Assembly (NCBI GenBank): GCA_040902335.1
Contig: JBBDXL010000101.1
Span: 24,579 to 88,578, forward strand
Source: Burkholderiales bacterium
Lineage (GTDB): Bacteria > Pseudomonadota > Gammaproteobacteria > Burkholderiales > SG8-39
Length of the DNA stretch: 64,000 bases
Direction of reading: 5' to 3'
The notes beneath the pieces were generated by a model. The model was not told where the DNA came from. It ran no database searches and saw only the letters and a program-made list of their open reading frames with translations. Shown here piece after piece: positions 1,796 to 20,748 of this stretch. A program made the position numbers and the translations under genes. Numbering within the stretch: position 1 is the first letter of the stretch; each line of letters opens with the position of its first letter.

Positions 1796-1802
1796 ATCCG
1801 CG

Positions 1803-2525: not shown

Positions 2526-2526
2526 G

Positions 2527-3924: not shown

Positions 3925-3959
3925 TGCCGCCCAATATGGGCTTGCGAGGGAATAACGGC

Positions 3960-3973: not shown

Positions 3974-3998
3974 ACCCGGGCTGTTTCGCCATCCCGCG

Positions 3999-5866: not shown

Positions 5867-5934
5867 GACTTTTCCGAGCCGCGAATCAGCCGCCGCCGAT
5901 GGCCGGCGCCGCGGCGCGCCGCCACACTGGCGGC

Positions 5935-6312: not shown

Positions 6313-6329
6313 AGAAAAGAGAGGACGCC

Positions 6330-7070
6330 ATGCACGCTGTCACCGCCATTCACGCCGCGCCCGCATCGAAGAAGTTCGAAGTCACCTGCTCGAGCTGCAA
6401 CCTGCGCGAGATGTGCCTGCCCGCCGGGCTGTGCGCCGAGGACCTCGAGCGCATCGAGAACGTGGTCTACGCGCGCCGGCGCCTGAAGCGCGGCGAGCCG
6501 CTGTTCAATGCCGGGGACAGCTTCAGCGCGGTGTACGCCATCCGCAGCGGCTTCTTCAAGACCAGCCTGCTCGACCCCGACGGGCGCGAGCAAGTCACCG
6601 GCTTCTTCATGGGCGGGGAGCTGCTCGGCATGGACGGCATCGGCGGCGCGCACCACGGCACCGCCATCGCGCTCGAGGACAGCGAGGTGTGCGTGCTGCC
6701 CTACGCGCTGATCGAGGACCTGTCGCGCGAGATCCCGGCGCTGCAGCGCCAGCTGCACGCGGTGCTGGCGCGCGAGATCGCGCGCGACCACGGCGTGATG
6801 ATGCTGCTCGGCTCGATGCGCGCCGAGGAGCGCCTGGCGACGTTCCTGCTCAACCTGTCCAGGCGCTTCGTGCGCCGCGGCTACTCCTCGACCGAGTTCC
6901 ACCTGCGCATGACGCGCGACGAGATCGGCAGCTACCTCGGCCTGAAGCTGGAGACGGTGAGCCGGCTGTTCTCCGCGTTCCAGAAGGACGGCCTGATCGA
7001 GGTGCAGCAGAAGCACGTGCGCATCCGCGAAATCGAGGGCCTGGAGCGGGTGCTCGCGACGCGGCACTGA
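6330..7070 (+). CDS. fnr: FNR (Crp/Fnr family, [4Fe-4S] oxygen-sensing transcription factor)
   Basis: 246 aa. N-terminal CSSCNLREMC aligns with E. coli FNR C20/C23/C29 and DSEVCVLPY with C122. The recognition helix ETVSRLF matches E. coli ETISRLL. An AAGAGAGGA Shine-Dalgarno sequence lies upstream. Confidence 0.95.
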   Translation: MHAVTAIHAAPASKKFEVTCSSCNLREMCLPAGLCAEDLERIENVVYARRRLKRGEPLFNAGDSFSAVYAIRSGFFKTSLLDPDGREQVTGFFMGGELLGMDGIGGAHHGTAIALEDSEVCVLPYALIEDLSREIPALQRQLHAVLAREIARDHGVMMLLGSMRAEERLATFLLNLSRRFVRRGYSSTEFHLRMTRDEIGSYLGLKLETVSRLFSAFQKDGLIEVQQKHVRIREIEGLERVLATRH

Positions 7071-7129
7071 GGGGGCTTTCGATCGCCTAGCGACTTCGAA
7101 TTGCCCGCATACCCGAAGTAACATGGGGT

Positions 7130-8557
7130 ATGCGTAGCGCTGCGCACATCGCTCTGCTGCTCGCGCTGTATCTCGCGCTCGCCCTGCTGCCGCTCGCGCT
7201 CGCCGCGGCGCAGGGCCTGCCGCGCCGCCCATGGCTCGACGAGCTCTCCTCCGGGCTCGCCATGGCCGGATTCGCGGTGCTGCTGCTCGAGTTCGCGCTC
7301 TCGGGCCGCTACCGGCGGCTCTCGGCGCGCGTCGGCATGGACCTGACGATGCGCTTTCACCAGCTGATGGCGCTCGCCGCGCTCGCCTTCCTGCTGTTCC
7401 ACCCGTTCCTCTATGCGCCCGCCTTCAGCGAGCGTCCGGCGTACGGCGCGGGGACTGCGACGCGCGTCCTGCTCACGCCGGCGGCGACGGTGAGTGGCAT
7501 GCTCGCCTGGATGCTGCTGGTGATGCTGGTCGCCTTCGCCTGGTTCCGCACGCAGCTGCGCTGGTCCTACGAGGCCTGGCGGCTCTCGCACGGCCTCGGG
7601 GCGCTGGCGATCGCCTTCCTCGGCGCGCATCACACGCTCGACACCGGGCGCTACGCGCAGGACCCCTGGCTGCGCGGCGTCTGGCTCGCGGCCTGCGCGG
7701 CGGCGCTCGTCTCCCTCGCGCTGGTGTACCTGGTGAAGCCGCTCGCGCAGTCGCGCCGGCGCTGGCGCGTCGCCATCGTCGCGCCGGAGGCCGAGCGCAT
7801 CTGGCGCGTGGTGCTCGAGCCCGACACCGCGCGCGATTTCCGCTTCGCCGCCGGCCAGTTCGTCTGGCTCAAGCTGCACCGTGCGCTCGGCCGCATCACC
7901 GAGCACCCGTTCTCCATCGCCTCGGCGCCGGGGCAGCTGCCGCGCCTGCAGTTCCTGGTGAAGGAGGCGGGCGACTTCACCCGCTGCATCGGCCGCGTCG
8001 CACCCGGCGCCGCGGCCTATGTCGACGGCCCATACGGCGACCTCACGCTCGCCGGCCGCGGCGGCGCGGGCATCGTCCTCATCGCCGGCGGCGTCGGCAT
8101 CGCCCCGATCCTCGGCCTGGCGCGCGACCTCGCCGCGACGCACGACCCGCGGCCGCTCACAATCGTCTATGCCGATCGCACGGCGGCGCAGCTCGCGGCG
8201 CGCGCCGAGCTGGAGGTGATGGCGCGTGCGCCCGGGCGCGAGCTGCACCTGGTGCTCGATGAGCCGCCCGCGGACTGGAGCGGCCTGCGCGGCCGTCTCG
8301 ACACGGCGAATCTCAGAGCCTGCCTGCCGCGCAGCGGCGCCGCCGAGTGGCTGTATTTCGTCTGCGGGCCGCCCGCGATGATCGACGCGGTAGAAATGAG
8401 CCTGGCCGAGCTCGGCGTGCCCCTGGCGAGAATCGCTTCCGAGCGCTTCGTCTACGACAGCGGCATCGCCACGCCGCGCGAGCGGCTGACGCGCGCGGTG
8501 ATCGCCGGGGTAATCGCGGTGCAGGTACTCGCCGTGGTAGCTTTCGTGCTGCGATGA
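7130..8557 (+). CDS. NOX/ferric-reductase-family flavocytochrome (6-TM bis-heme domain + FAD/NAD(P)H dehydrogenase domain)
   Basis: 475 aa. His pairs with NOX-type spacing: FHQLMALAALAFLLFH has 13 residues between the His, and SHGLGALAIAFLGAH has 12. Also HPFSIAS (FAD), GPYG, GGVGIAP (NAD(P)H), CGPPAM, and an extra C-terminal TM helix. Confidence 0.85.
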   Translation: MRSAAHIALLLALYLALALLPLALAAAQGLPRRPWLDELSSGLAMAGFAVLLLEFALSGRYRRLSARVGMDLTMRFHQLMALAALAFLLFHPFLYAPAFSERPAYGAGTATRVLLTPAATVSGMLAWMLLVMLVAFAWFRTQLRWSYEAWRLSHGLGALAIAFLGAHHTLDTGRYAQDPWLRGVWLAACAAALVSLALVYLVKPLAQSRRRWRVAIVAPEAERIWRVVLEPDTARDFRFAAGQFVWLKLHRALGRITEHPFSIASAPGQLPRLQFLVKEAGDFTRCIGRVAPGAAAYVDGPYGDLTLAGRGGAGIVLIAGGVGIAPILGLARDLAATHDPRPLTIVYADRTAAQLAARAELEVMARAPGRELHLVLDEPPADWSGLRGRLDTANLRACLPRSGAAEWLYFVCGPPAMIDAVEMSLAELGVPLARIASERFVYDSGIATPRERLTRAVIAGVIAVQVLAVVAFVLR

Positions 8558-9408
8558 GCCTGCGCTCCCTGCTCGCCGCCACCGATTTTTCCGAGCACGC
8601 GCAGCTCGCGGCGCTGCGCGCGGCGCTGCTCGCGCGCGAGCTCGGCGCACGCCGGTGCGTGCTGCTGCACGTGGCGCTGGAGCGCGCGCTGCGCCCGGCC
8701 GACCGGGCGCGCGTGACGCGCCGGCTGCGGCGGGAGCTGGCGCAGCAGGCGCGCGCGCTGCAGGCGCAGACCGGCGCCGCGGTCGTGCCGCGCCTCGCGT
8801 GCGGGCCGGTGGTGGAGACCCTGGCACGCGCCGCGCGACACTTCGACCTGGTGGTGGTCGGCGCGCAGGGCGCGCATCCGCTGCGCGACTTCGCCATCGG
8901 CACGAGCGCCGAGCGGCTGCTGCGCCGGATCCATCGCCCGGTGCTGGTGGTAAAGCGCCGCCCCGCGGGCGCTTACCGCCGGGTGGTGGTGCCGGTCGAT
9001 TTCTCCGGCGCCTCGAAGGCCTCGCTCGCGCTGGCGCATGCCGTCGCGCCGGGCGCCGAGCTGAGCGTGCTGCACGCGTTCGAGGTGCCCTACGAGGGCA
9101 AGCTGCGCGTCGCGGGCGTGGCCGAGGACGACGTGCTGCGCTACCGCAGGCTCGCCCGCGAGCGGGCACGTGCGGACATGGACACGTTGCTCGGCGGCGC
9201 CGGCTCGGGCGTCGTGCGCCTGATCGCGCACGGCTATCCGCCGAAGCTGATCGCCCGCACCCAGGCCGAGATCGGCGCCGACCTGGTCGCGATCGGCAAG
9301 CACGGCCGGTCGGCGCTCGAGGACCTGCTGATCGGCAGCGTCACGCTGCATACCCTGTCGGCGGTGGATTGCGACGTGCTGGTGACGCCGCGATCTCCGC
9401 GGCGATGA
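8554..9408 (+). CDS. universal stress protein, tandem UspA domains
   Basis: From ATG 8554, which overlaps the upstream stop (ATGA). MSLRSLLAATDFSEHA...VVVGAQG...GTSAERLLRRIHRPVLVV..., and a second domain ending IGKHGRSALEDLLIGSVTLHTLSAVDCDVLV. Confidence 0.85.
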   Translation: MSLRSLLAATDFSEHAQLAALRAALLARELGARRCVLLHVALERALRPADRARVTRRLRRELAQQARALQAQTGAAVVPRLACGPVVETLARAARHFDLVVVGAQGAHPLRDFAIGTSAERLLRRIHRPVLVVKRRPAGAYRRVVVPVDFSGASKASLALAHAVAPGAELSVLHAFEVPYEGKLRVAGVAEDDVLRYRRLARERARADMDTLLGGAGSGVVRLIAHGYPPKLIARTQAEIGADLVAIGKHGRSALEDLLIGSVTLHTLSAVDCDVLVTPRSPRR

Positions 9409-11020
9409 CGCGCGCCGCATGATCGGCGGCGTCGTCGAAGGGGTTCAGGACGCGCGCGGCGCCGGCGCGCTCGAGCGCGGCGCCGTGGGCCGGGTCGCGC
9501 GCCACCGCCGCCACCTGGCCCCGGAAGCCGGCTTCGCGCAGCGCGTGCAGCAGCGCGCGGTGCGATTCCCATTGCGGCAGCGTGCTGACGGCCCAGGCCG
9601 ATTCCGCCAGGGGGAGTGACTCCAGGAACGCCGGGTCCTCGGCGTCGCCGAAGCGCACCGCAAAGCCCCGGCGGCGCAGCGCGCGCACCGTCTCCGGATC
9701 GAAGTCGACGCCGAGCGTGTTGACGCCGGCCGCGCGCAGCTGCGCGAGCAGGCGCGCGCCGTAGCGGCCGAGCCCGAAGATCACGACGTCGGGCGCCTCC
9801 TCCGGCCGGCGCTGGCGCTCGACCGCGAGCTCGCGGAACGGCCGGCGCCGCTCGAACACGCGCAGCCAGGGCGCGAGCCGCTCGTACAGGCCGTGCGAGT
9901 ACAGGATCATGTAGGTGGAGAGCGCGATCGTGATCACGCCCACCAGCGTGGTGAGGCCGAGCGCCTGCGGGCCGACGTGGCCGAGCGAGATGCCCATGGC
10001 CACGAACACGATGGAAAACTCGCTGATCTGCGCGACCGTGAGGCCGGCGAGGAAGCCGGTGCGACGGCGGTAGCCCATGTAGCCCATGATGACCATGACG
10101 ATAAGCGGATTGCCGACCAGCACGAACAGCGACAGGACCGCCGCCAGCCCGAGCTCGCCGCCGAGGACCGACAAGTCCAGATTGGCGCCGAGGTCGATGA
10201 AGAAGAACAGCAGCAGGAAGTCGCGGATGCCGGTGAGCCGCGCGGCGATCGCTTCGCGATAGCCCGTCGAGGCGAGCGAGAAGCCGGCGAGGAAGGCGCC
10301 CGCCTCCTTGCTGAAGCCGGCCCACTCGCCGAGCGCCGCGAGGCCCGTGCCCCACGCGATCGCGAACACCAGCAGCAGCTCCTGCGAGCCGGCCATGGCC
10401 TCGGTGACGCGCGGCACGACGTAGCGCACCAGCACGAACATGAGCGCGGCGGCCGCGCCGACCCGCGCCACGAGCGACAGCGCCACCTCGAGCGCCGCGG
10501 CCTCTCCGGCCCCGCGCAGCGCGCTCATCGCCACCATCGCCAGCACCACGGCGATGTCCTGCACGATCAGGAAGCCCACCGCGATGCGCCCGTGCAGGGT
10601 GTCGAGCTCGCGCTTGTCCGAGAGCAGCTTGACGATGATGATGGTGCTCGAGAACGTGAGCGCCACCGCCACGTAGAGCGCCTCCATCGGCGACTTGCCC
10701 ATCAGCAGGATGAGCGCGAAGCCGAACAGGATCGTGAAGCCGAGCTGCCCGAGCCCCGTGGCGAGCGCGACCGGGCCGATGTGGCGCACGCTGTGCAGGT
10801 CGAGCTTCAGGCCGACGACGAACAGCAGCACCGCGACGCCCACCTGGGCGAGCAGCGCGATCTGGTCCTCGGAGCGGACGAAGCCGAAGACGGCGGGCCC
10901 GGCGAGGATGCCGACGACGATGTAGGCGATGAGCACCGGCTGGCGCAGGCGCACCGCCAGCACGCCGGCGAGCGCCGACAGGATCAGCAGGAGCGCGAAT
11001 TCCTCGAACGAGCCGTGCAT
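9341..11020 (-). CDS. CPA2 cation:proton antiporter with C-terminal TrkA-N/RCK domain (Kef-like)
   Basis: 559 aa. About 12 TM segments (MHGSFEEFALLLILSALAGVLAVRLRQPVLIAYIVVGILAGP), then a Rossmann segment DVVIFGLGRYGARLL. Confidence 0.9.
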   Translation of the reverse strand: MHGSFEEFALLLILSALAGVLAVRLRQPVLIAYIVVGILAGPAVFGFVRSEDQIALLAQVGVAVLLFVVGLKLDLHSVRHIGPVALATGLGQLGFTILFGFALILLMGKSPMEALYVAVALTFSSTIIIVKLLSDKRELDTLHGRIAVGFLIVQDIAVVLAMVAMSALRGAGEAAALEVALSLVARVGAAAALMFVLVRYVVPRVTEAMAGSQELLLVFAIAWGTGLAALGEWAGFSKEAGAFLAGFSLASTGYREAIAARLTGIRDFLLLFFFIDLGANLDLSVLGGELGLAAVLSLFVLVGNPLIVMVIMGYMGYRRRTGFLAGLTVAQISEFSIVFVAMGISLGHVGPQALGLTTLVGVITIALSTYMILYSHGLYERLAPWLRVFERRRPFRELAVERQRRPEEAPDVVIFGLGRYGARLLAQLRAAGVNTLGVDFDPETVRALRRRGFAVRFGDAEDPAFLESLPLAESAWAVSTLPQWESHRALLHALREAGFRGQVAAVARDPAHGAALERAGAARVLNPFDDAADHAARVIAAEIAASPARRNPPPTGYAA

Positions 11021-11023
11021 GAG

Positions 11024-11917
11024 CTAGGCGACGAGCAGTACGGGCACGGGGCTCGCCGCCGCCGCCTTCAGCGCCACCGAGCCGAAGAGCGCGTGGTGCG
11101 CGGCGCCGCGCCCGCGCGTGCCGAGGGCGAGGAGCTCGCACTGCGTGTCGCGCGCCAGGCGCGCGAGCTCGGCCGCCGGGTCGCCCGCGACCAGGTGCGC
11201 CTCGTGCTTTACGCCGGCGCGGGACAGCAGGTCGCGCGCCGCCTCGAGGGCCTGCGCGCCCGAGTCGCCGCGCCACTGCGCGAGCGCGTCCTCGTGCGGC
11301 GGCATCATCTTTTCCAGCAGCGTGAGCGGCGGCTGCACATGCGCGAGCTGGATCTCGAGCTCGCCCAGCCAGCCGCGCCAGGAAAGCAGACGCTCCAGCG
11401 CGCGCAGCGCGGGCGGCGAGCCGTCCATGGCGCACAGGATGCGCAGGCGCTCGCCCAGCGCGCGCGGCAGCGCGGCCTCGGGCCCGACGATCAGCGTGGG
11501 CGCGACCCCGCCGTGCGCGACGCGCATGGCCGCCGAGCCGAGCGCGAAGCCGTGCAGCGCGCCGTGCCCGCGCGTGCCCATGACGATCGCCTGCGCGCCC
11601 GAAGCGCGCGCATCGTCGAGCAGCGCCGGGGCCGGCAGGCCGAAGCGCACCTCGCCGCGCGCCGCGATCCCCGCCTGCGCCAGGCGCTCGAGCGCGGGCG
11701 CGAGCGCGCCGCGCCCCGCCTCGGCGAGCGCCGCGTCGAGGGCCGCGGGATCGATGCCCATGCCCGGGAACAGCGTCACCGGCCGCTGCTGCACGTTGAC
11801 CGCGAGCACCTCGAGCCGCCCGCGCTCCCCACGATAGCCCGCCAGCAGCTGCGCGGCGCGCTGCGCCGCCGGCGAGCCGTCGAAGGCGAGCACCAGCCTG
11901 ACCGGACTTTCGCTCAT
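11024..11917 (-). CDS. universal stress protein, tandem UspA domains
   Basis: From ATG 11917 (MSESPVRLVLAFDGSPAAQRA...IVMGTRGHGALHGFALGSAAMRV...LALGTRGRGAAHHALFGSVALK). The ATG overlaps the ATPase stop (ATGA). Confidence 0.85.
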   Translation of the reverse strand: MSESPVRLVLAFDGSPAAQRAAQLLAGYRGERGRLEVLAVNVQQRPVTLFPGMGIDPAALDAALAEAGRGALAPALERLAQAGIAARGEVRFGLPAPALLDDARASGAQAIVMGTRGHGALHGFALGSAAMRVAHGGVAPTLIVGPEAALPRALGERLRILCAMDGSPPALRALERLLSWRGWLGELEIQLAHVQPPLTLLEKMMPPHEDALAQWRGDSGAQALEAARDLLSRAGVKHEAHLVAGDPAAELARLARDTQCELLALGTRGRGAAHHALFGSVALKAAAASPVPVLLVA

Positions 11918-14613
11918 ATGTCCTCCTGCACGACCTGCAGGTCCGCCACCCCCAGGCGGCGCAGCAGCCACTTCTCACCCTCCAGCAGCAGCAGCATGAC
12001 CACGCCGATGCCCACGATCATCGCGCCATCGGCGAGCGACACCGGCCGCGTGGCGAACCACAGTTGCATGAACGGCGCATAGGTGAAGGCAAGCTGCGCG
12101 ACGATCACCGCGGCGAGTGCGATCAGCACCGCCGGCGTGCCGAGCGCGCCGCGCGGCGTGATCGAGGCCTGGTGCAGGTAGCGCACGTTGAACAGGTAGA
12201 AGATTTCCATCACCACGAGCATGTTCACCACCAGGGTGCGCGCCGTCTCCAGGTCGTTGCCCCGCGCGAGCGAATGGAAGAACATCGCCAGCGCGGCGCC
12301 GAGGAACAGGAACGATACCAGCGCCACGCGCCAAAGGAGGAACGGCGACAGCAGCGGCGCCTGCGGCGGGCGCGGCGGGCGGCGCATCACGCCGGGCTCC
12401 GCGGGCTCGAACGCGAGCACCAGCCCGAGCGTCACCGAGGTGACGAGGTTGATCCACAGGATCTGCACCGCGCTCACCGGCAGCACGAAGCCGAAGGCGA
12501 TCGCCGCGATCACGGTGAGCGCCTCGCCGCCGTTGGTGGGCAGCGTCCAGGCGATCACCTTGCGGATGTTGTCGTAGACCGTGCGCCCTTCGTGCACCGC
12601 GTTGACGATGGAGGCGAAATTGTCGTCGGCGAGCACCATCTCCGCGGCTTCCTTGGCGGCTTCCGTGCCCTTGATGCCCATCGCCACGCCGACATCGGCC
12701 TGCTTGAGCGAGGGGGCGTCGTTCACGCCGTCGCCGGTCATCGCCACCACCGCGCCACCCGCCTGCAGCGCGCGCACGATGCGCAGCTTGTGCTCGGGGC
12801 TGGTGCGCGCGAACACCGTGGAGCGCCCCACGGCTTCGGCGAACTCGACCTCGTCCATCGCGTCCAGCTCCGCGCCGGTCACCGCCTGCGGATCGTCCGC
12901 CAGCCGGAGCTGCCGGGCGATGGTCGCGGCCGTCGCCGCGTGGTCGCCGGTGATCATCTTCGCCTCGATGCCCGCCGCGCGGCACTCGGCAACCGCAGCG
13001 ATCGCCTCCTCGCGCGGCGGATCGATGAAGCCGGCGATGCCGAGGAACTCGAGCTCGCTGGCGACGTCCGCCTTGCGCAAGCGCTGCTGCGCGCCCGGCA
13101 GCCGCTTGCACGCGAAGCCGAGCACGCGCTCGCCCGCCGAAGCGGCCTCGGCGATGCGCTTCGCCCAGGCCTCGCGCTCCTCGTCGCCCAGACCCGCCAT
13201 GGCGAGCAACGGCTCGGGCGCGCCCTTCACGTACGCCACCGCGTCGCCGTCGGGCCCGCGGTGCAGCGTGGCCATGTAGCGGTGCGCCGCGTCGAACGGA
13301 ATCTCGTCCAGGCGCGGCCACTCGGCGCGCGCGTGCTCCGGGTTGAGGCCGGTCTTCATGGCGAGCGCCACCAGCGCGCCCTCCATCGGGTCGCCTTCCA
13401 CCGTCCAGGCGCCGTCGCGCTGGCGCAGCTGCGCGTCGTTGCACAGCAGGCCGCAGCGCACCAGCGGCGCGGCCGCCGCGATCGCGGCGGCGTCGTCGTC
13501 GTGGCCGACGGCCTCGAGATCGCCCTCGGGCGCATAACCCGAGCCGCTCACCGCCACGTGGTGCCCGCCGGCGATCACGCGCGTCGCCGTCATCTCGTTC
13601 CGGGTCAGCGTGCCGGTCTTGTCCGAGCAGATCACCGAGGTGGCGCCGAGCGTCTCCACCGCGGGCAGGCGCCGGATGATGGCGTTTCGCGCCGCCATGC
13701 GCTGCACGCCGATGGCGAGCGTGATGGTGATGACCGCGGGCAGCCCTTCGGGCACCGCGCCTACGGCGAGCGCCACCACCGCCATCAGCGCCTCCGGCCA
13801 GCCGTAGCCGCGCACCCCGACGGCGAAGGCGAACACCACTGCCGAGACGGCGAGCGCGACCCACGTGAAGATCAGGCCGAAACGATTGATCTGGCGCAGC
13901 AGCGGCGTGGTGAGCTGCTCCACGCTCTGCAGGAGCGAGCTGATGCGGCCGATCTCGGTGCGCATGCCGGTGGCCACCACCACGCCGCTCGCCTGGCCCG
14001 CGGCGACCAGCGTCCCCGAGTAGGCCATGCCGCGCCGATCGCCGAGCGGCGCATCGGCCGCCACCGGCTCCTCCAGTTTTTCCGCGGCCACCGATTCGCC
14101 CGTGAGCAGCGCCTCGTCGATGAGCAATCCCCGCGCGCGCACCAACCGCAGGTCCGCGGGCACGCGGTCGCCCGCCTCCAGCAGCACGAGATCGCCCGGG
14201 ACCAGCTCCGCCACGGCCACCGACTGGCGGGCACCGTCGCGCCGCACGCTCGCCCTGGGCGAGATCATCCTACGCATCGCCTCGAGCGCGGCTTCCGCCT
14301 TGCCCTCCTGCACGAAGCCGATGACGGCGTTGACCACGACCACGGCGGCGATCACCGCGGCGTCGATGAAATGGGCGAGGATCGCCGCCGCCGCCGCGGC
14401 GACGAGCAGGAAGTAGATGAGCGCGTTGTTGAACTGCGCGAGGAAACGCAGGATCGGGTGCCGGCGCGGCGCTTCCGGCAGCGCGTTCGGGCCGTGCCTC
14501 TTCAGGCGCTCGGCGGCTTCCCCGGCCGACAGGCCCTGCGGGCCGCTGGCGAGGGCGCGCAGCGCCTCCTGCGCGGGAATCGCGTGCCAGTCCTGTCGGG
14601 TAAAGTCGCTCAA
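11914..14613 (-). CDS. P2-type cation-translocating P-type ATPase (SERCA/PMCA-like)
   Basis: CSDKTGTLT phosphorylation motif, TGES, PEGLPAVITITLAIG, TGDGVNDAPSLKQADVGVAMG. The ORF track extends it to 15333, but that part overlaps mgtE. I place the start at TTG 14613, which overlaps the mgtE stop (TTGA) and gives MSDFTRQDWHAIPAQEAL. Confidence 0.93.
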   Translation of the reverse strand: MSDFTRQDWHAIPAQEALRALASGPQGLSAGEAAERLKRHGPNALPEAPRRHPILRFLAQFNNALIYFLLVAAAAAAILAHFIDAAVIAAVVVVNAVIGFVQEGKAEAALEAMRRMISPRASVRRDGARQSVAVAELVPGDLVLLEAGDRVPADLRLVRARGLLIDEALLTGESVAAEKLEEPVAADAPLGDRRGMAYSGTLVAAGQASGVVVATGMRTEIGRISSLLQSVEQLTTPLLRQINRFGLIFTWVALAVSAVVFAFAVGVRGYGWPEALMAVVALAVGAVPEGLPAVITITLAIGVQRMAARNAIIRRLPAVETLGATSVICSDKTGTLTRNEMTATRVIAGGHHVAVSGSGYAPEGDLEAVGHDDDAAAIAAAAPLVRCGLLCNDAQLRQRDGAWTVEGDPMEGALVALAMKTGLNPEHARAEWPRLDEIPFDAAHRYMATLHRGPDGDAVAYVKGAPEPLLAMAGLGDEEREAWAKRIAEAASAGERVLGFACKRLPGAQQRLRKADVASELEFLGIAGFIDPPREEAIAAVAECRAAGIEAKMITGDHAATAATIARQLRLADDPQAVTGAELDAMDEVEFAEAVGRSTVFARTSPEHKLRIVRALQAGGAVVAMTGDGVNDAPSLKQADVGVAMGIKGTEAAKEAAEMVLADDNFASIVNAVHEGRTVYDNIRKVIAWTLPTNGGEALTVIAAIAFGFVLPVSAVQILWINLVTSVTLGLVLAFEPAEPGVMRRPPRPPQAPLLSPFLLWRVALVSFLFLGAALAMFFHSLARGNDLETARTLVVNMLVVMEIFYLFNVRYLHQASITPRGALGTPAVLIALAAVIVAQLAFTYAPFMQLWFATRPVSLADGAMIVGIGVVMLLLLEGEKWLLRRLGVADLQVVQEDI

Positions 14614-15572
14614 ATCCCGAACAACCTTACCACGGCGAAATACACGAGCAGGCTGAGGATGTCCTGGATTACCGTGGCGATCGGCCCGCTGCCGAGCGCC
14701 GGGTCGCGCCCGAGGCGCGCGAGCCACCATGGGAGCAGCAGCCCGAGCGCCGCGGCCATGGTGCCGGCGGCGAAGATCGCGGTGGCCACCGCGCCCGCGA
14801 GGCGCACGTCGCCGAAGGCCACCCAGATGGGAAGGAAGCTGATGAGCCCGAGCGAAGCGCCGATCGCCATGCCGGTGCGCAGCTCGCCCGCGAGCAGGTG
14901 CGCGATGCCGCTGCGCGTGAGCGAAAGCCCGCGCACCGCGACCGCTTCGCTCTGCGTGCCGATCGCGTCCGCCAGGTAGACGATGCCGGGGACGAAAAAG
15001 GCGACGGCAATGTGGGCGCTCAGCGTCGATTCGAACCCCGCCATCGCCATCGTCGCCACCGCCGCGCCGGCGAGGCCCGCGAGCAGCCAGGGCAGGCGGT
15101 GGCGCACGCGCCGCATCGGCGGGTCCTCGATGGCGTGGCGCGCCTGGGACGATTCGCGCTGGATGCCGGCGAGCACGTGCAGGTCCTCTACGTGCTCGCG
15201 GCGCAGCACCTGCATCAGCGCCTGCGCGGGCATCACGCCCAGCGCGCGGCCTTCGGCGTCCACCACGGGCAGCGCGTCCACGCGGTGGTGCAGCGCGAGC
15301 GAGGCCGCATGCTCCTGGTCGGTGTTCGGGCAAACGCGAGGAAAGTCGCGATCCAGCGCCTTGTCGATCGGCTCATCCGGCTGCAGGGCCACCACCCGCG
15401 AGAGCGATGCGGCGCCCAGCAGGTGCCCGTGCGCGTCCACCCCGAGCACCAGCTCGAGGGTGGCGGGCTTCTCCGCGGCGAGCCGCGCGAGCACCGCAGC
15501 CGCGCGCTCGCCGGGCCGCGCGTGCAGCGCCGAGGCGACGACGTGCGCGCCTACGGTTTCGTGGTGCTTCAC
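14610..15572 (-). CDS. mgtE: MgtE-like Mg2+ channel (CBS pair + MgtE TM domain, short N-terminus)
   Basis: C-terminal 320 aa of ORF 14610..15926, from GTG 15572, which overlaps the ACP stop (GTGA). CBS-like region followed by PWLLAGLAGAAVA...DAIGTQSEAVAVRG...GSGPIATVIQDILSLLVYF. Confidence 0.85.
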   Translation of the reverse strand: MKHHETVGAHVVASALHARPGERAAAVLARLAAEKPATLELVLGVDAHGHLLGAASLSRVVALQPDEPIDKALDRDFPRVCPNTDQEHAASLALHHRVDALPVVDAEGRALGVMPAQALMQVLRREHVEDLHVLAGIQRESSQARHAIEDPPMRRVRHRLPWLLAGLAGAAVATMAMAGFESTLSAHIAVAFFVPGIVYLADAIGTQSEAVAVRGLSLTRSGIAHLLAGELRTGMAIGASLGLISFLPIWVAFGDVRLAGAVATAIFAAGTMAAALGLLLPWWLARLGRDPALGSGPIATVIQDILSLLVYFAVVRLFGI

Positions 15573-15808
15573 GCCGACTTGTTCGCGAGGTAGTCCACGA
15601 TCTGCTCGAGCGTGCCGAGCTTGCGGTAGTCGGCCTCGGGGATCTCGATCCTGAGGCGCTCGTTGAGGGCGACGAGGAAGTTGAGCCAGTCCATCGAATC
15701 GAGGTCGACCTGGTCGCGCAGGGGCTTCGCCGGCGCGACGTCCTCCAGCTCGGGCGCGATGCGCTTGAGCTCCGCGAGCACGATCTTCCTGATTTCCTCG
15801 GCATCCAT
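15569..15808 (-). CDS. acyl carrier protein (phosphopantetheine-binding)
   Basis: 79-80 aa. The DLDSMDWLNFLVAL motif contains the Ser for the 4'-PP arm. ATG 15808 shares one base with the E2 stop. Confidence 0.8.
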   Translation of the reverse strand: MDAEEIRKIVLAELKRIAPELEDVAPAKPLRDQVDLDSMDWLNFLVALNERLRIEIPEADYRKLGTLEQIVDYLANKSA

Positions 15809-16953
15809 CACAGATTCTCCGGTTCCTGCAGCAGGGCCGCGAGCGCGGCGAGGAAGCGCGCGCCGCGATGGCCGTCGCTCGCGCGATGGTCGCCGCCGAG
15901 GCTCGCGACCACCGCCGGCACGGCACCGATCATGCCATCTTCGGCCCAGGGGCGAGGCGCGACCCGGCCGAAGCCCACGATCGCCACCTGCGGCGGGAAG
16001 ATGATGGCAAACACTTCATCTACGCCCTGGTCGCCCAGGTTGGTTACGGTGATCGTGGGATCGCTCATTTCGGAGGAGCGCAGCGAGCCCGCGCGCGCGC
16101 GGCGCACGAGGTCGGCGAGTGCCTTCATCAGCTCGTCGAGGCTGCGTTCGGCCACATCGTGGATCGCGGGCGCGATGAGCCCGCCCTGCCTGAGCGAAAT
16201 CGCGATGCCGATATGGATGCCCTGCGCCGGCTCGAAGGCATCGTCCTTCCAGAAGCCGTTGAGATCGGGAAAATCCTTCAGCGCGCGCGCCACCGCCTTC
16301 AGCTGCAGCGCGCCCATCAGCAGCCTCTCGGTGACCGGCCGCTTCTCGTTGTACGTCGTGAGCCAGTCCTGCGCGCGCTGCATCGGGACCAACTGGGACA
16401 GGTAGTAGTGCGGGATCTCGCGCTTGGAGCGGCTCATCGCCGCGGCGATGGCTTTGCGCATCGCAAGCGCCTTGTCGGACGGCGGTGCCGCGGCGGGCGC
16501 GGGCGCCGGCTTTGCCCCGCCCTTCGCCGCTTTCTCCACATCCTCCACGGTCACCGCGCCGTGCGGCCCGCTGCCGGCGAGCGTCTCCACGTCTACACCC
16601 AGCTCGCGCCCATGCTTGCGCGCGGCGGGGGAGACGGGATGCCGTGACGGTGCCGGTGCCGGCGTCGGTGCCGGTGCGGCCGCCGGCGCAGCGGCAGGCG
16701 CTGCAGCAGGCGCCTCGCCGGCGGCGGCGAGCCGCGCCATGACTGTTTCCACCGGAATCGTCTCGCCCGGCTTCGTGATCAGCTCCTGCACCACGCCGTC
16801 CTGCCAGATCTCGACGTCCACGGCGGCCTTGGGCGTCTCCACCACGGCCACCACGTCGCCGCGCTTCACCGCGTCGCCCGGCTTCACCTTCCATTCGATC
16901 AGCTTGCCCTCGTCCATGTCGGCGCCGAGGGAGGGGAGCTTGAATTCGATCAT
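15808..16953 (-). CDS. 2-oxoacid dehydrogenase E2 (dihydrolipoamide acyltransferase) with one lipoyl domain
   Basis: Lipoyl domain (VVAVVETPKAAVDVE), Ala/Pro linker, E3/E1-binding domain (SPAARKHGRELGVDVETLAGSGPHG), and catalytic DHRASDG. Start is ATG 16953 (MIEFKLP, GAGG upstream) or TTG 16962. Confidence 0.9.
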   Translation of the reverse strand: MIEFKLPSLGADMDEGKLIEWKVKPGDAVKRGDVVAVVETPKAAVDVEIWQDGVVQELITKPGETIPVETVMARLAAAGEAPAAAPAAAPAAAPAPTPAPAPSRHPVSPAARKHGRELGVDVETLAGSGPHGAVTVEDVEKAAKGGAKPAPAPAAAPPSDKALAMRKAIAAAMSRSKREIPHYYLSQLVPMQRAQDWLTTYNEKRPVTERLLMGALQLKAVARALKDFPDLNGFWKDDAFEPAQGIHIGIAISLRQGGLIAPAIHDVAERSLDELMKALADLVRRARAGSLRSSEMSDPTITVTNLGDQGVDEVFAIIFPPQVAIVGFGRVAPRPWAEDGMIGAVPAVVASLGGDHRASDGHRGARFLAALAALLQEPENL

Positions 16954-17000
16954 GGCGGTCAACCTCAGGGGCTATGGTGCGTTGCACGCCTGCGCCGGAC

Positions 17001-17014
17001 TTGACCTGGATCAA
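17001..17014. promoter_or_regulatory. FNR-type box TTGACCTGGATCAA
   Basis: Perfect TTGAY-N4-RTCAA. The centre at 17007.5 is 54.5 bp upstream of the E2 ATG 16953, which allows a leader carrying a Shine-Dalgarno sequence. Confidence 0.7.
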
Positions 17015-17099
17015 CTGCGGGGCAAGCCCCGGGTGGGACGCGACGTCGTTTCTGGTGCTCTACAATTCGAACCGCAACGCGACAAAGAACCAGACGCAG

Positions 17100-18689
17100 A
17101 TGCCTCGGCGCACTACCGACAAGAAAAAGCGACGGAAACTTCGGACGTACTCCCGCTCGACCGTCCAAAAACGGAGGCCGTCGCGCGCGCGCCAACTTCG
17201 ACAGGAAGTCGCGTCCTACGCCGTTGGTCGCGATCGGTTCGTCGATACCGTCGGCGACCAGTACAGTGCGCTTCATTCCCCGGCGACGCGCAGGAGAAGG
17301 GGCATCACGTTCACGCCGCCCGAGTTGGTCGAGCAGATGGTGGCGCTTGCACAACGAGGCGGCGTCGACATCAAGCGCATCGTTGATCCAGGTGCGGGAA
17401 CGGGGCGCTTCACAATTGCCGCCGCGCGAGCTTTCCCTGCCGCATCGATCGTGGCGATCGAGTACGACCGCGTGCTGGCCAGTCTGTTGCTGGGCAACCT
17501 CACCGCCGCGGGGCTCGGTGACCGGGTCCAAGTACACGTGGCGGATTTTCGCGCGGCGATGTTGCCGCGCATCGAAGGCGCAACGCTCTTCATTGGAAAT
17601 CCGCCCTACGTGCGGCATCACGACATCGAGTCGTCGTGGAAGCAGTGGTACTCATCCCGGCTGGCGTCGAGGGGCATTCGCGGGAGCCAGCTCGCCGGCC
17701 TGCATGCCCACTTCATGGTGAAGACGTTCGACCTGGCGCAGGAAGGCGATCTCGTCTGCTATGTGACCTCCGCTGAATGGCTCGACACCCACTACGGGTC
17801 GGCGCTGAGAGCGCTCTTGCTCGCCGCGGCCCGCGACATCGACATTGTGCTGTTGGATCGCGCATCACCCGCGTTCGCGGACGCAATGACCACGTCGGCC
17901 GTCTTGTCGTACCGCCACTTGCGGGGCGCATCGTCGGTGAACCTAAGGCTGATCGCCTCGATTCGAGAGTTGTCGAGCGTCCCTGCATCTGCAGGGGTCC
18001 GAAAGCGGGACCTTTCTCATTTTGATGCATGGAGCAGATTCGCAACCGCTGGTCCCACAGCGGATGTCGGTTCTGCCGCGAGGTTGGGCGATCTATTCTC
18101 GGTTCATCGGGGTCAGGTCACGGGAAACAACATGATCTGGGTCGAGGGCCGGTATCCAGGACTGCTTCCTGATCAGGTCCTCTTCCCCACCGTCACGCGA
18201 GCCAGAGATTTGCTCGATCTCGGATCGGACCGCCTGCTCGAAGTAACGACCCTGAAGCGGGTTGTCGATCTCCCTGCAGATTGGTCGCGAAGCGCGGATC
18301 TCGAGGCCGGGCAGATCCGGAGATTCATCGACTGGGCCGGCAAGCATGGCGGGCGCGACAGCTATATCGCGCGGCACCGCAAACCATGGTTCAAGGTGGG
18401 CCTGCGCGAACCGGCGCCCATCATCATGACCTACATGGCGCGCAGGTCGCCCAGGTTCGTCCGCAATCTGTGCGGAGCCCGCTTGATCAATATTGCCCAT
18501 GGCCTGTATCCGAGAGAACCGATTCCCGCGACCGATCTCGATCTCATCACGAAGTGGCTGAACGCGAACGTGTCGCGCGACGGCGGCCGCACGTATTCCG
18601 GGGGCCTGACGAAGTTCGAGCCCAGGGAAGTCGAAAGACTTCACTTACCGGTGCTTGAAGAGTTACGGACCCCAGGAACTGCCTCGTGA
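17100..18689 (+). CDS. N6-adenine DNA methyltransferase, gamma class (Eco57I/TaqI-like), type II RM
   Basis: ORF 16974..18689. Motif I VDPGAGTGRF comes about 90 aa before motif IV GNPPYV. A TaqI-like C-terminal specificity region follows. The likely start is ATG 17100 (MPRRTTDKKKRR). Local GC is about 60% versus about 72% in the flanks. Confidence 0.85.
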   Translation: MPRRTTDKKKRRKLRTYSRSTVQKRRPSRARQLRQEVASYAVGRDRFVDTVGDQYSALHSPATRRRRGITFTPPELVEQMVALAQRGGVDIKRIVDPGAGTGRFTIAAARAFPAASIVAIEYDRVLASLLLGNLTAAGLGDRVQVHVADFRAAMLPRIEGATLFIGNPPYVRHHDIESSWKQWYSSRLASRGIRGSQLAGLHAHFMVKTFDLAQEGDLVCYVTSAEWLDTHYGSALRALLLAAARDIDIVLLDRASPAFADAMTTSAVLSYRHLRGASSVNLRLIASIRELSSVPASAGVRKRDLSHFDAWSRFATAGPTADVGSAARLGDLFSVHRGQVTGNNMIWVEGRYPGLLPDQVLFPTVTRARDLLDLGSDRLLEVTTLKRVVDLPADWSRSADLEAGQIRRFIDWAGKHGGRDSYIARHRKPWFKVGLREPAPIIMTYMARRSPRFVRNLCGARLINIAHGLYPREPIPATDLDLITKWLNANVSRDGGRTYSGGLTKFEPREVERLHLPVLEELRTPGTAS

Positions 18690-19618
18690 GCTGGCCCAAG
18701 CACGCGCGCAAGTGGAGCCCCGCGGAGATCCTCAAGGATGTGGCGAAGGCGAGGAACCAATTCAGAGTTCGCAGAGTTGGAGAACCGCGGGAGAGGTACG
18801 TGCACGCGTTCCGCGTCATCGAGCGGGCGAATCGCACGATAACACCGCAGCTTTCACGGCTCTTTGACGACCCCCTTGACGTGGACCTGTTGATCTCAAT
18901 CGTGAAGGACAAGGAACTTCTGTCGGCGTTTCGGTACCTCGCGGCACCGCCGGTTTCCCAGGACGACCTCGAGACGCTGTCGGGCGCCCGGCTCGCCTGG
19001 ACTCAGTTGAAAGCCAGTCCCGCGAAGGCGGCGGCAGTCAGAAACGTTGTCGCCTCGATTCTGGACACGAAGCGGTTCGGGTGGTTGCGCGAGCGGCGAG
19101 CTCCGAGGAAACACGAGACGGAGGCCGCAATTCTCGCTTCGACTGTCGTTGCGTCTGCGCAGAGGGTTCAAACGGAGAGGCGCTCGGAGGAACGAAAGGA
19201 ACTCCAGGATGCGGTAATACAGGTTCTGGAGAGGATGAAGTATCGGCGGGCCGACAAGCCGCGCAAGGGGGTTCAGAACCTTCGCCGCGATGCGCCGAAG
19301 CCTGGCGAGTACATGACTGAAGTGTTGATCCATGAACACAACGCGGACGTCGCGGTCGGCATGAAAGATTTCCGGATCCTCGCGGTCGAGTGCAAAGGAT
19401 CGAACAGCGAGATCAACAGCCGCAAGAGAATCAACAAGGAGGTCGCGCGCGACGCGTCGAGCTGGATCGAGCGATTTGGCGATGAGATCGTGCCGGCTGC
19501 GGTCGTCCAGGGCGTCTTCAATGCGACGTATATCGAGCAAGCCCAGGAGACCCCCGTGGTGTTCATCTGGGCACACCGGCTCGAGGACCTCGAGCGATTC
19601 CTGAACGCGAGTCGATAG
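18686..19618 (+). CDS. putative type II restriction endonuclease (PD-(D/E)xK-like; XamI-like from memory only)
   Basis: 310 aa. The GTG start overlaps the methylase stop (GTGA). Candidate catalytic stretch: HNADVAVGMKDFRILAVECKGSNSE (D...E-x-K). Same low-GC patch as the methylase. Confidence 0.6.
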   Translation: MSWPKHARKWSPAEILKDVAKARNQFRVRRVGEPRERYVHAFRVIERANRTITPQLSRLFDDPLDVDLLISIVKDKELLSAFRYLAAPPVSQDDLETLSGARLAWTQLKASPAKAAAVRNVVASILDTKRFGWLRERRAPRKHETEAAILASTVVASAQRVQTERRSEERKELQDAVIQVLERMKYRRADKPRKGVQNLRRDAPKPGEYMTEVLIHEHNADVAVGMKDFRILAVECKGSNSEINSRKRINKEVARDASSWIERFGDEIVPAAVVQGVFNATYIEQAQETPVVFIWAHRLEDLERFLNASR

Positions 19619-19794
19619 CGCATTCGCGCAAACTTCCCCGAGTCCACAATGAGGAGAGCGAAGCGAACTCGGCATGGCCGAGGGCAGACCGTCAAGCTCC
19701 TGCCCAAGCGCATCGGCTTGAAACGGCTCGATTCAATATTGGGGGCGTTTCGCGGCCGGTTCAGGCGACGCCAGCCCCGCATGCGCGGTCCCCG

Positions 19795-20748
19795 CTAGCC
19801 AAAGAGCCCCTTCACCGCGGCGACGATCTTCTCCGGCTGCGGCAGCGCCGCTTCCTCGAGGTGTTTCGGATACGGCATCGGCACCTCCTCGCTGCACACG
19901 CGCGCCACCGGCGCATCCAGCTCGTAGAAGGCCTGCTCACTGAGGCGCGCCATCACTTCCGCGGCGAGGCCGCCGCTCCTCCAGCCCTCGTCCACCACGA
20001 CGACGCGGCGCGTCTTCTTCACCGACTCGATGACCGGCGCCAGGTCGAGCGGGCGCAATACGCGCAGATCGATCACCTCGCCGTCCACCACTTCTGCGGC
20101 CTTCAGCGCCTTGGGCAGGCAACCGCCGTAGGTCACCAGGGTGACCTTGCTTCCCGTCCTGCGGACCTTGGACGAAGCGATGTCCACCTTCTCGCCGGAA
20201 GCTTCGCCTTTTGTCTCGAAAAGTGCCGGGTACTCGAACAGGAGCACCGGGTCCGGGTCGGCGAGCGCGGCGGCGAGCATGCCGCGCGCGTCCTCCACCG
20301 TCGCGGGCGCGACGATCTTGATGCCGGGAATGTGCGCGTACCAGCCCTCCAGGCTATGCGAGTGCTGCGCGGCGAGCTGGCGCCCGGCGCCGGTCGACAT
20401 GCGCACGACCAGCGGCACCGAGAACTGCCCTCCCGACATGTGCCTGAGCAGCGCCGCGGTGTTCACGATCTGGTCGAGCGCGAGCAGGCTGAAGTTCACC
20501 GTCATCACTTCCACGATCGGGCGCATGCCGCCGAGCGCGGCGCCGATGCCCGCGCCGGTGAAGCCGAGCTCGGAGAGCGGCGTGTCGCGCACGCGCTCGG
20601 GCCCGTACTTTTCCAGCAGGCCCTTGCTCACGGCATAGGTGCCGCCGTATTTGCCTACGTCCTCGCCCATGAGGAACACGCGCTCGTCCTTTGCCAGCGC
20701 CTCGTCGAGCGCCTGGCGCAGCGCTTCGCGGTAGGTGATGAGGCTCAT
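19795..20748 (-). CDS. 2-oxoacid (pyruvate/acetoin-type) dehydrogenase E1 beta subunit
   Basis: [44 protein letters not shown]... The ATG overlaps the E1-alpha stop (ATGA). Confidence 0.95.

What the first reader, a model, noticed from the sequence alone, without database searches (positions are those of the whole stretch)
16963..19794. Type II restriction-modification pair wedged on the opposite strand between the E1-beta and E2 genes
E1-beta ends at 19795 and E2 begins at 16953. These genes are normally adjacent.

Here they are separated by a 2.8-kb stretch of about 60% GC (flanks about 72%). It encodes a gamma-class N6-adenine methyltransferase (DPGAGTGRF ... NPPY) and, overlapping its stop (GTGA), a 310-aa PD-(D/E)xK-like protein.

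No integrase, transposase or obvious terminal repeats accompany it, so the insertion mechanism is unclear.

E2 keeps its own FNR box (17001..17014) at the left edge of the islet. That box may be what keeps the downstream E2-ACP-MgtE-ATPase-USP-Kef operon expressed.
Basis: partly seen in the sequence, partly recalled or inferred. Interest (0 to 1): 0.55.

Follow-up and report, generated by a model that had tools for sequence, protein, structure and literature searches.

The report
Restriction-modification cassette inside a dehydrogenase operon
An intact, ordinary-type restriction-modification gene pair sits inside a metabolic operon at a junction that relatives fill with many different cargoes, and it appears to spread between related bacteria by recombination through the flanking operon genes rather than by any mobility enzyme.

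Summary
Window 16954..19797 is a 2.84-kb, 62%-GC segment (window 71%) between E2 (start 16953) and E1-beta (stop 19795). In about 19 close relatives and in most more distant relatives sampled, these two genes overlap by 4 nt (ATGA).

The segment encodes a gamma-class N6-adenine methyltransferase, more likely starting at 17100 (529 aa) than at 16974. A 310-aa XamI-family endonuclease (Pfam 85 bits; D221/E235/K237 invariant) overlaps its stop. Both genes are under strong purifying selection.

The islet is composite:
- The E2-proximal FNR-box promoter also occurs in relatives without the R-M pair.
- The E1-beta-proximal 150 nt is a decayed vapB antitoxin gene, left from a vapBC module that is intact at this junction in sister lineages.

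The junction is a hotspot with at least eight cargo states.

There are no mobility genes or terminal repeats. Related loci show how the cassette moves. One relative has the R-M core 1.4% diverged while its flanks are 9.2% diverged. Two others carried E1-beta fragments along, and one of these also has a 149-nt duplication of the E2 5' end joined at a microhomology. This fits homologous and homology-facilitated illegitimate recombination.

It is a new member of a known kind in an instructive context. Specificity is unknown.

The parts
15808..16953 (-). E2 dihydrolipoamide acyltransferase gene; left homology anchor of the islet
   Evidence: Pfam 2-oxoacid_dh, Biotin_lipoyl and E3_binding. Homology to relatives ends at 16954-16957.
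16971..16981 (-). Conserved -10-like element (CGCACCATAG on the minus strand) of the E2 promoter
   Evidence: Conserved at the same spacing from the FNR box in the window, L002, L061, L062 and in L007, which has no R-M; one substitution in L066; not conserved in L065.
17001..17014 (.). FNR/CRP-type palindrome TTGACCTGGATCAA, 48-61 nt upstream of the E2 ATG
   Evidence: One of 13 boxes against 0.02 expected. Present 52-62 nt upstream of E2 in all R-M, NaCaEx and HK/RR junction states. Absent from empty, vapBC-only and FADox-only states.
17015..17053 (.). 39-nt spacer with a small hairpin (GCGGGGCAAGCCCCGG); present in the window and L002, absent from L066
   Evidence: Alignment of the E2-MTase intergenic regions.
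17054..17067 (+). R-M-specific conserved block GTGCTCTACAATTC (TACAAT at 17061-17066), probable -10 of the M-R promoter; left edge of the R-M core
   Evidence: Conserved in all R-M loci at this junction (window, L002, L066, L065, L061/62) and absent from L007. The function is inferred.
17100..18689 (+). Gamma-class N6-adenine DNA methyltransferase, 529 aa
   Evidence: Pfam Eco57I 38.7 bits (cut-off 25.3). PADLOC MTase_II PDLC03222 515 bits over the full length. Motif I at residue 96 and NPPY at residue 167. Conserved ATG. dN/dS 0.11-0.18.
18686..19618 (+). XamI-family PD-(D/E)xK Type II restriction endonuclease, 310 aa; start overlaps the MTase stop (GTGA)
   Evidence: Pfam RE_XamI 85.4 bits (cut-off 25). 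PADLOC REase_II 124 bits. D221, E235 and K237 invariant in 42 homologs. AF2 model pLDDT 94.6, with best folds BstEII and BsoBI. dN/dS 0.04-0.07.
19649..19798 (+). vapB antitoxin pseudogene (49 codons, 66-nt in-frame internal deletion; vapC deleted); its end overlaps the E1-beta stop
   Evidence: 80% nt identity over 89 nt to the intact vapB of L006. Alignment with L006, L066, L065, L080 and L130. No Pfam hit remains.
19795..20748 (-). E1-beta gene; right homology anchor
   Evidence: Pfam Transket_pyr and Transketolase_C. Homology to relatives resumes at 19795-19802.

Best explanation
The segment is a composite islet that has built up at a recombination-prone junction inside an AMP-ligase / E1-alpha / E1-beta / E2 / ACP / MgtE / P-type-ATPase gene string. 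In the ancestral state E1-beta and E2 overlap by 4 nt (ATGA).

The active cargo is an intact Type II restriction-modification operon. A gamma-class m6A methyltransferase comes first. A XamI-family PD-(D/E)xK endonuclease follows and is translationally coupled to it through a GTGA overlap. By inference from the family, the methylase marks a short DNA site on the host chromosome and the endonuclease cuts unmarked incoming DNA. If the pair is lost, the chromosome is left under-methylated in the presence of residual nuclease, which stabilises the islet.

The cassette has no mobility genes. It entered a junction that already held a vapBC addiction module, whose toxin gene has been deleted and whose antitoxin gene is decaying. 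Since then it has been passed among related Burkholderiales lineages by recombination anchored in the conserved flanking genes. The E2 side recombines homologously. The other side recombines either homologously in E1-beta or illegitimately at microhomology.

Because the E2-proximal flank travels as the homology arm, an FNR-box promoter always accompanies the cassette. That promoter probably supplies transcription to E2 and the genes downstream, which the opposite-strand insert has cut off from the upstream promoter.

Shown here: gene identities, integrity, selection, the empty site, the alternative cargoes and the recombination footprints. Inferred: enzymatic activity, specificity, promoter function and the order of events.
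For: Identity and integrity:
- Pfam RE_XamI at 85 bits, and PADLOC MTase_II at 515 bits with REase_II at 124 bits.
- Motif I precedes NPPY in the MTase.
- D221, E235 and K237 are invariant in 42 homologs down to 43% identity.
- The AF2 model has pLDDT 94.6, and its best PDB matches are BstEII, BsoBI and other PD-(D/E)xK nucleases.
- Both genes are full length compared with homologs. dN/dS is 0.04-0.07 for R and 0.11-0.18 for M.

Insertion:
- About 19 close relatives (E2 at least 70% identical) have the ATGA overlap, and most more distant relatives sampled (Aromatoleum, Thauera, Polaromonas and others) have the two genes overlapping or less than 70 nt apart.
- R-M GC is 0.62 against 0.71.
- The same cassette lies in unrelated contexts: PEPcase|M-R|binding protein, recX|M-R|alaS, and ABC ATPase|M-R|permease.

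Mosaic structure:
- The FNR box and -10-like element are shared with L007, L129 and L074, which lack the R-M pair.
- The vapB remnant is aligned to intact vapBC in L006, L070 and L071.

Movement by recombination:
- L097 has an R-M core 1.4% diverged against 9.2% for the flanking coding DNA (p about 2e-37). In L066 the R-M core is the more diverged part (16.3% against 10.7%).
- dS of the R-M genes against L065 and L061 is 1.5-2.4, while the flanks are mostly 0.5.
- L091 reads HK-RR-[FNR box + E2' 5' end]-[E1-beta' aa 249-331]-R-M-[FNR box + E2]. It has a 149-nt direct repeat at 85% identity and a joint at the microhomology GCGGTGG.
- L061 carries an E1-beta' fragment between R and a FAD oxidoreductase.

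No repeats or mobility genes were found.
Against: - No activity, methylation or transcript data exist.
- Recognition specificity is unknown. GTCGAC, the XamI/SalI site, is not avoided in host DNA (27 observed against 32.7 expected).
- Foldseek E-values are marginal (1e-3 at best).
- The recombination footprints are in related metagenomic contigs, not in the window itself, whose own joints carry no duplication.
- Metagenome contigs can be chimeric. However, L091's structure is backed by L074 and L061 as independent contigs.
- vapBC-only relatives also have an opposite-strand insert yet no FNR box, so such a promoter is not strictly required for E2 expression.
- The host phylogeny is inferred from two flanking genes only.
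Confidence: 0.72

Rival explanations
1. A single, recent, private insertion of a bare two-gene R-M cassette directly into the empty E1-beta/E2 site of this genome, by an unknown transposition-like or illegitimate event. This is the simplest form of the first reader's picture.
For: An empty ATGA site exists in close relatives. GC is foreign. There are no mobility genes or repeats.
Against: - The islet contains a vapB pseudogene homologous to an intact vapBC at the same junction in sister lineages.
- Its E2-proximal promoter is shared with states that lack the R-M pair.
- The same R-M family occupies the same junction in several diverged lineages: L065, L066, L061, L091 and L097.
Confidence: 0.08
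2. The R-M pair was gained once in an ancestor of this sub-clade and has been inherited vertically. The other junction states are secondary losses or replacements, and no inter-lineage transfer is needed.
For: - Window against L066: dS of the R-M genes (0.58-0.64) is close to that of the flanks (0.37-0.51), compatible with co-divergence.
- The R-M pair always lies in the same orientation next to the same FNR promoter.
Against: - L097 has an R-M core 6-7 times less diverged than its flanks.
- L065 and L061 have R-M genes 3-4 times more diverged than L066's, although their flanks are mostly about equally distant.
- L091 and L061 carry E1-beta' fragments, and L091 a duplicated E2 5' end at 85% identity. 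That means donor and recipient copies, not vertical descent.
Confidence: 0.15
3. The pair is a decaying or domesticated remnant, for example an orphan methylase used for regulation plus an inactive nuclease, and no longer a working restriction system.
For: - The neighbouring vapBC has decayed, so addiction modules do erode at this site.
- There is no avoidance of the candidate site GTCGAC.
- No sigma-70 consensus promoter was detected in the islet.
Against: - Both ORFs are full length compared with homologs.
- The catalytic D221/E235/K237 residues and NPPY are intact.
- REase dN/dS is 0.04-0.07, which is stronger constraint than on E2.
- The GTGA coupling is kept in the window, L065 and L066.
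Confidence: 0.1

Closest known systems
XamI / SalI-type Type II restriction-modification systems (Pfam PF09572 RE_XamI; NCBI name 'XamI family restriction endonuclease')
   Same: - Separate M and R genes.
- The REase passes the PF09572 gathering score (85 against 25 bits).
- The MTase is a gamma-class NPPY enzyme of the Eco57I/TaqI-like group.
- Plasmid-borne relatives are annotated as XamI family.
   Different: - Only 32-35% identical to the annotated plasmid members, and no solved structure is related by sequence.
- Recognition sequence is unknown, so GTCGAC cannot be assumed. That XamI and SalI cut GTCGAC is from my own knowledge of REBASE and Pfam, not tested here.
Mobile behaviour of R-M gene complexes without mobility genes: insertion with long target duplication and allelic substitution (Furuta, Abe and Kobayashi 2010, PMC2853133)
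   Same: - A bare R-M unit of lower GC, inserted between conserved genes with no integrase or transposase.
- Different R-M alleles and non-R-M genes alternate at one locus.
- L091 shows a long (149-199 nt) direct duplication flanking the insert.
   Different: - The window's own copy has no target duplication.
- In L091 the two repeat copies are only 85% identical and match different lineages. This points to donor and recipient copies joined by homology-facilitated illegitimate recombination, not to duplication of a target.
- The site is a 4-nt gene overlap inside an operon.
Homology-facilitated illegitimate recombination (definition in PMC3240628), and sequential displacement leaving orphan immunity genes in Vibrio T6SS clusters (Kirchberger et al. 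2017, PMC5361080)
   Same: - One end is anchored in a conserved gene (E2) and the other is joined at microhomology (L091).
- The incoming toxic module sits next to a retained 'antidote' gene of the previous module. The orphan vapB corresponds to the orphan immunity genes.
   Different: - Here the modules are of unrelated kinds (a TA pair, then an R-M pair).
- The orphan antitoxin is decaying rather than being maintained.
- The mechanism is inferred from footprints only.
VapBC (MazE/AbrB-type antitoxin plus PIN toxin) type II toxin-antitoxin modules
   Same: L006, L070 and L071 hold an intact pair at this junction (Pfam MazE_antitoxin 34 bits, PIN 75 bits). The window keeps an 80%-identical piece of vapB.
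   Different: In the window vapC is gone and vapB has lost 22 internal codons, so it no longer matches the family model.

Membership tests
Type II restriction-modification system | Separate, adjacent genes for a DNA methyltransferase and a restriction endonuclease | tested here: met
   M is at 17100-18689 and R at 18686-19618, on the same strand with a 4-nt overlap. PADLOC gives MTase_II 515 bits and REase_II 124 bits.
Type II restriction-modification system | Sequence-specific cleavage blocked by cognate methylation | not testable with these tools
   This needs cloning or methylome data. Indirect support comes only from purifying selection.
XamI-family restriction endonuclease (PF09572) | Score above the Pfam gathering threshold over most of the model | tested here: met
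   85.4 bits against a 25-bit cut-off, covering model positions 12-256 of 256. All 225 homologs found carry PF09572.
XamI-family restriction endonuclease (PF09572) | Recognition of GTCGAC, as for XamI and SalI | tested here: inconclusive
   GTCGAC is not depleted in host DNA (27 observed, 32.7 expected). One site lies in the islet, at 17364. With only about 33% identity to annotated members, specificity cannot be transferred.
PD-(D/E)xK nuclease superfamily | Catalytic D ... (D/E)-x-K motif, conserved | tested here: met
   A220-D221 ... E235-C236-K237 is invariant in 42 homologs and lies on consecutive beta strands of the model (E218-225 and E231-240).
PD-(D/E)xK nuclease superfamily | Restriction-endonuclease-like alpha/beta core fold | tested here: met
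Gamma-class N6-adenine DNA methyltransferase | SAM-binding motif I before catalytic motif IV (NPPY), with the target-recognition domain C-terminal | tested here: met
   DPGAGTGRF at residue 96 and NPPY at residue 167 of 529. Pfam Eco57I 38.7 bits. The C-terminal M_Eco57I_C match is below cut-off here (17.4 against 27) but is recorded for the homologs.
Gamma-class N6-adenine DNA methyltransferase | Product is N6-methyladenine in DNA | not testable with these tools
   Needs a methylome or biochemistry.
R-M insertion with long target duplication (Furuta/Kobayashi class) | Direct repeats longer than 30 bp flanking the R-M unit that align to a single copy in the empty genome | tested here: not met
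   In the window only short, imperfect repeats were found. The feature is met in the related locus L091, with a 149-nt repeat 3,007 nt apart.
Integrase- or transposase-borne mobile element | Recombinase gene and/or terminal inverted or direct repeats | tested here: not met
   No such ORF lies within 16954-19797 and there are no terminal repeats. None was found next to the cassette in L063, L148 or L150 either.
VapBC toxin-antitoxin module (for 19649-19798) | Antitoxin gene matching the MazE/AbrB model, followed by a PIN toxin gene | tested here: not met
   The window ORF has no Pfam hit and no vapC. It is a pseudogene by homology to L006 (80% over 89 nt) with a 66-nt internal deletion.
FNR-dependent (class II type) promoter for E2 | TTGAT-N4-ATCAA-like palindrome | tested here: met
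   TTGACCTGGATCAA at 17001-17014. The pattern occurs 13 times against 0.02 expected. It is conserved 52-62 nt upstream of E2 in 10 or more related loci.
FNR-dependent (class II type) promoter for E2 | Box centred near -41.5 relative to a mapped transcription start; FNR-dependent transcription | not testable with these tools
   The TSS is unknown. A conserved -10-like CGCACCATAG begins about 26 nt from the box centre (its candidate -10 hexamer about 30-31 nt), which is compatible but unproven.

The most novel reading that the evidence does not exclude
The ATGA overlap between E1-beta and E2 may be a true operon-internal capture site at which addiction and defence modules (vapBC, the XamI-type R-M pair, an HSDR_N nuclease-like gene, an unknown 305-aa gene) and metabolic genes are serially gained, exchanged and eroded. 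On this reading the R-M cassette persists there because it travels as a package with a portable FNR-dependent promoter that repairs the polarity it causes. It would use the host's own operon genes as homology arms, in effect a mobility strategy that needs no recombinase and makes the host operon its vehicle.
Probability: 0.3. Interest if true: 0.55.

Novelty: new member of a known kind. Interest (0 to 1): 0.38.

Why it matters
The enzymes belong to a known family, so the gene pair itself is routine. Two things give the locus some value.

- It is a diverged XamI-family system, about 33% identical to annotated members, with unknown specificity and no solved relative. The confident model resembles BstEII and BsoBI. 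It could be a source of a new specificity.
- It is a natural record of how a recombinase-less R-M cassette lives inside an operon and moves. The record includes the empty site, at least eight alternative cargoes, a decaying earlier addiction module, a co-travelling promoter, and joints with carried-over flank fragments and microhomology.

Together these make the proposal that R-M units spread by flank-anchored recombination directly testable in one clade.

Tried and rejected
1. Terminal direct or inverted repeats around the islet: only short chance matches.
2. Inferring specificity from site avoidance. GTCGAC is not depleted. ACCGGT is absent (0 against 11.1 expected), but it is equally avoided in relatives that lack the R-M pair (3 against 14.5), so it is unrelated to this system.
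3. The idea that the E2 promoter is a duplicate of the operon's own FNR promoter (box at 23442) or of another FNR promoter in the window: no homology beyond the box itself.
4. Exact-protein look-up of E2 to identify the source genome: not on record. The window's species is not among the GTDB representatives (best 85%).
6. Phage carriage of the cassette: none. Plasmid copies are only distant relatives.
7. A literature search for 'XamI' returned only unrelated uses of the word.
8. Consensus sigma-70 promoter and terminator scan of the islet: no promoter, and no terminator at the convergent R/E1-beta end.
9. Comparing dS between the R-M genes and the flanks as a clock is biased by their different GC3. 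I therefore relied on within-gene comparisons across relatives and on the reversed pattern in L097.
Full report
**1. What is in the window**

Between 16954 and 19797 lie two + strand ORFs, flanked by minus-strand genes. E2 has the Pfam domains 2-oxoacid_dh, Biotin_lipoyl and E3_binding, with its ATG at 16953. E1-beta has Transket_pyr and Transketolase_C, with its stop at 19795-19797. GC falls to 0.60-0.64 inside the segment. The R-M genes are 0.62 and the rest of the window 0.711.

**2. The two genes**

- The first ORF carries DPGAGTGRF (residue 96) before NPPY (residue 167), which is the gamma-class order.
- It matches Pfam Eco57I (38.7 bits, cut-off 25.3) and, over its full length, the PADLOC Type II MTase model PDLC03222 (515 bits).
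- The mechanical ORF starts at 16974. An ATG at 17100 and the N-terminus MPRRTTDKK are conserved in every relative, and relatives' gene calls are mostly 527-535 aa. The 126 nt upstream hold promoter elements. I therefore place the start at 17100, giving 529 aa.
- The second ORF (18686-19618, 310 aa) overlaps the MTase stop in GTGA. It passes the Pfam RE_XamI threshold (85.4 against 25 bits) and matches PADLOC REase_II (124 bits).
- Of 225 homologs, all carry PF09572, in a graded series from 91% to 43% identity. In an alignment of 42 of them, D221, E235 and K237 are invariant.
- No solved structure is related by sequence.
- An AlphaFold model built on that alignment is confident (pLDDT 94.6, pTM 0.81). 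Its best PDB matches are the Type II enzymes BstEII (probability 1.00, TM 0.47-0.50) and BsoBI. PD-(D/E)xK cores of NucS/EndoMS, Card1/Can2 and SfsA follow. E-values are weak.
- Against four to five relatives, dN/dS is 0.04-0.07 for R and 0.11-0.18 for M.

Both genes are therefore intact and under selection. Activity and specificity are inferred, not shown.

**3. It is an insertion**

I scanned species-representative genomes and metagenomes with E2 and classified the junction in every locus that holds the E2 start. About 19 close relatives (E2 at least 70% identical) have E1-beta and E2 overlapping by ATGA (...TTCGCATGA). Most more distant relatives (Aromatoleum, Thauera, Polaromonas and others) have them overlapping or less than 70 nt apart. 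Homology between the window and these relatives stops at 16954-16957 and resumes at 19795-19802.

The same M-then-R cassette occurs bare in unrelated settings:
- PEP carboxylase|M-R|binding protein, where the flanks are 0.60 GC and the cassette 0.57.
- recA-recX|M-R|alaS.
- ABC ATPase|M-R|permease.

**4. The islet is a mosaic**

- E2 side: a -10-like element (CGCACCATAG on the E2 strand, 16971-16981) and the FNR box (17001-14) are conserved, with variable spacer sequence, in most R-M-bearing loci. They are also conserved in L007, which has no R-M pair but carries a FAD oxidoreductase and a Na/Ca-exchanger-type gene. L129 and L074, which also lack the R-M pair, keep the FNR box.
- The R-M-specific sequence begins only at GTGCTCTACAATTC (17054-67), a probable -10 (TACAAT) 34 nt before the MTase ATG.
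- E1-beta side: 19696-19784 is 80% identical to the vapB gene of L006. In L006, an intact vapB (MazE_antitoxin) and vapC (PIN) pair fills the junction on the opposite strand. L070 and L071 are the same.
- Alignment shows a decay series. L066 has the R-M pair plus a full-length vapB and no vapC. The window and L002 share L066's breakpoint and have a further 66-nt in-frame deletion. L065 keeps only the last third of vapB and has an extra HSDR_N-domain gene.
- L080 and L130 have vapB only, no R-M pair, and a different vapC deletion. The toxin gene has therefore been lost at least three times independently.

**5. The junction is a hotspot**

States seen among relatives:
- empty
- vapBC
- vapB alone
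- FADox alone
- NaCaEx with the FNR promoter
- FADox, NaCaEx and the FNR promoter
- HK and FixJ-type RR with the FNR promoter
- a PNPOx-like gene
- an unknown 305-aa gene with REP-like repeats
- the R-M pair in four combinations

The FNR box is found only with the NaCaEx, HK/RR or R-M states. It is never found with the empty, vapBC-only or FADox-only states.

**6. How the cassette moves**

There are no recombinase genes and no terminal repeats. Three footprints in relatives point to recombination through the flanks.

- L097: the R-M core differs from the window by 1.4% (35/2565) while the flanking coding DNA differs by 9.2% (200/2172; p about 2e-37). Against L066 the R-M core is the more diverged part (16.3% against 10.7%).
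- The flanks place L066 and L065 about equally far from the window (dS 0.37-0.51); L061's E1-beta is similar (0.49) but its E2 is further (0.79). R-M dS is about 0.6 for L066 but 1.5-2.4 for L065 and L061, as far as the copy in an unrelated context. Different alleles therefore occupy one site.
- L091 equals L074 (HK-RR-FNR box-E2) plus a block [E1-beta' aa 249-331]-R-M-[FNR box-E2 5' end]. This leaves a 149-nt direct repeat at 85% identity. The first copy is 91% identical to L074 and the second 84%. The E2'/E1-beta' joint lies at the microhomology GCGGTGG. L061 likewise carries an E1-beta' fragment between R and FADox.

This matches homology-facilitated illegitimate recombination as defined in PMC3240628. 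It also resembles the sequential displacement that leaves orphan immunity genes in Vibrio T6SS clusters (PMC5361080). R-M insertion without mobility genes, with long target duplication, or by allelic substitution is an established class (PMC2853133).

**7. The FNR box**

The pattern TTGAY-N4-RTCAA occurs 13 times in the window against 0.02 expected, so it belongs to a real regulon. Conservation of the box and the -10-like element with a variable spacer argues for function. Its constant association with the R-M pair is explained if the E2-proximal flank is the homology arm that travels with the cassette. It is not a copy of another promoter in the window. Its role in driving E2 and the downstream genes is plausible but untested. 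vapBC-only relatives manage without it.

**8. Verdict**

The enzymes are a new, diverged member of a known family. The context is the more interesting part: a composite islet at an operon-internal hotspot, with footprints of flank-anchored transfer. All the mechanisms involved are already known in principle. Interest is moderate.

Noticed in passing
window 3960, 17001, 23442, 28851, 30598, 34248, 34849, 41245, 41627, 42543, 52984, 53288, 58446: Thirteen exact TTGAY-N4-RTCAA (FNR/CRP-type) palindromes in 64 kb, against 0.02 expected from shuffles. The window appears to be a dense anaerobic (FNR-family) regulon.
   Followed up: partly
window, whole (host part 1-16953 and 19798-64000): ACCGGT is completely absent (0 observed, 11.1 expected under a Markov-4 model). 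It is also depleted in relatives that lack the R-M pair (3 against 14.5), while the foreign islet contains one copy. This suggests clade-wide pressure from a different, AgeI-like restriction system.
   Followed up: partly
L013 6061-6978 and 6950-8000: In a more distant relative (E2 63% identical) the same junction holds an unknown 305-aa ORF with no Pfam family, followed by about 1 kb of REP-like repeated elements.
   Followed up: no
L065 4849-5661: An extra 270-aa HSDR_N_2-domain protein (N-terminal nuclease-like domain of Type I restriction R subunits) sits directly after the REase in one relative's islet.
   Followed up: no
L074 32-1917; L091 572-2931: In one lineage E2 is preceded by a histidine kinase and a FixJ/LuxR-type response regulator rather than by E1-alpha/beta. 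The E2-ACP... unit is therefore a separate FNR-box-headed transcription unit there.
   Followed up: partly
L148 4541-6951; L150 4071-6502: Distant members of the same M-R cassette are also wedged inside conserved gene strings: recA-recX|M-R|alaS, and ABC ATPase|M-R|permease with a FitA/PIN TA pair two genes away. None has mobility genes.
   Followed up: partly
L066 about 220-250 (E2-MTase intergenic region): In L066 the left half of the FNR box (TTGACC) lies 16 nt upstream of the conserved TACAAT. The box could therefore double as the -35 of the M-R promoter there. In the window a 39-nt insert with a hairpin separates them.
   Followed up: no
L001 (= window 16918-19849), L002, L003: Short-read Logan contigs carrying the islet break 35-54 nt inside E2 and E1-beta. 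This is consistent with assembly-graph branching where strains with different flanks or junction states coexist.
   Followed up: no
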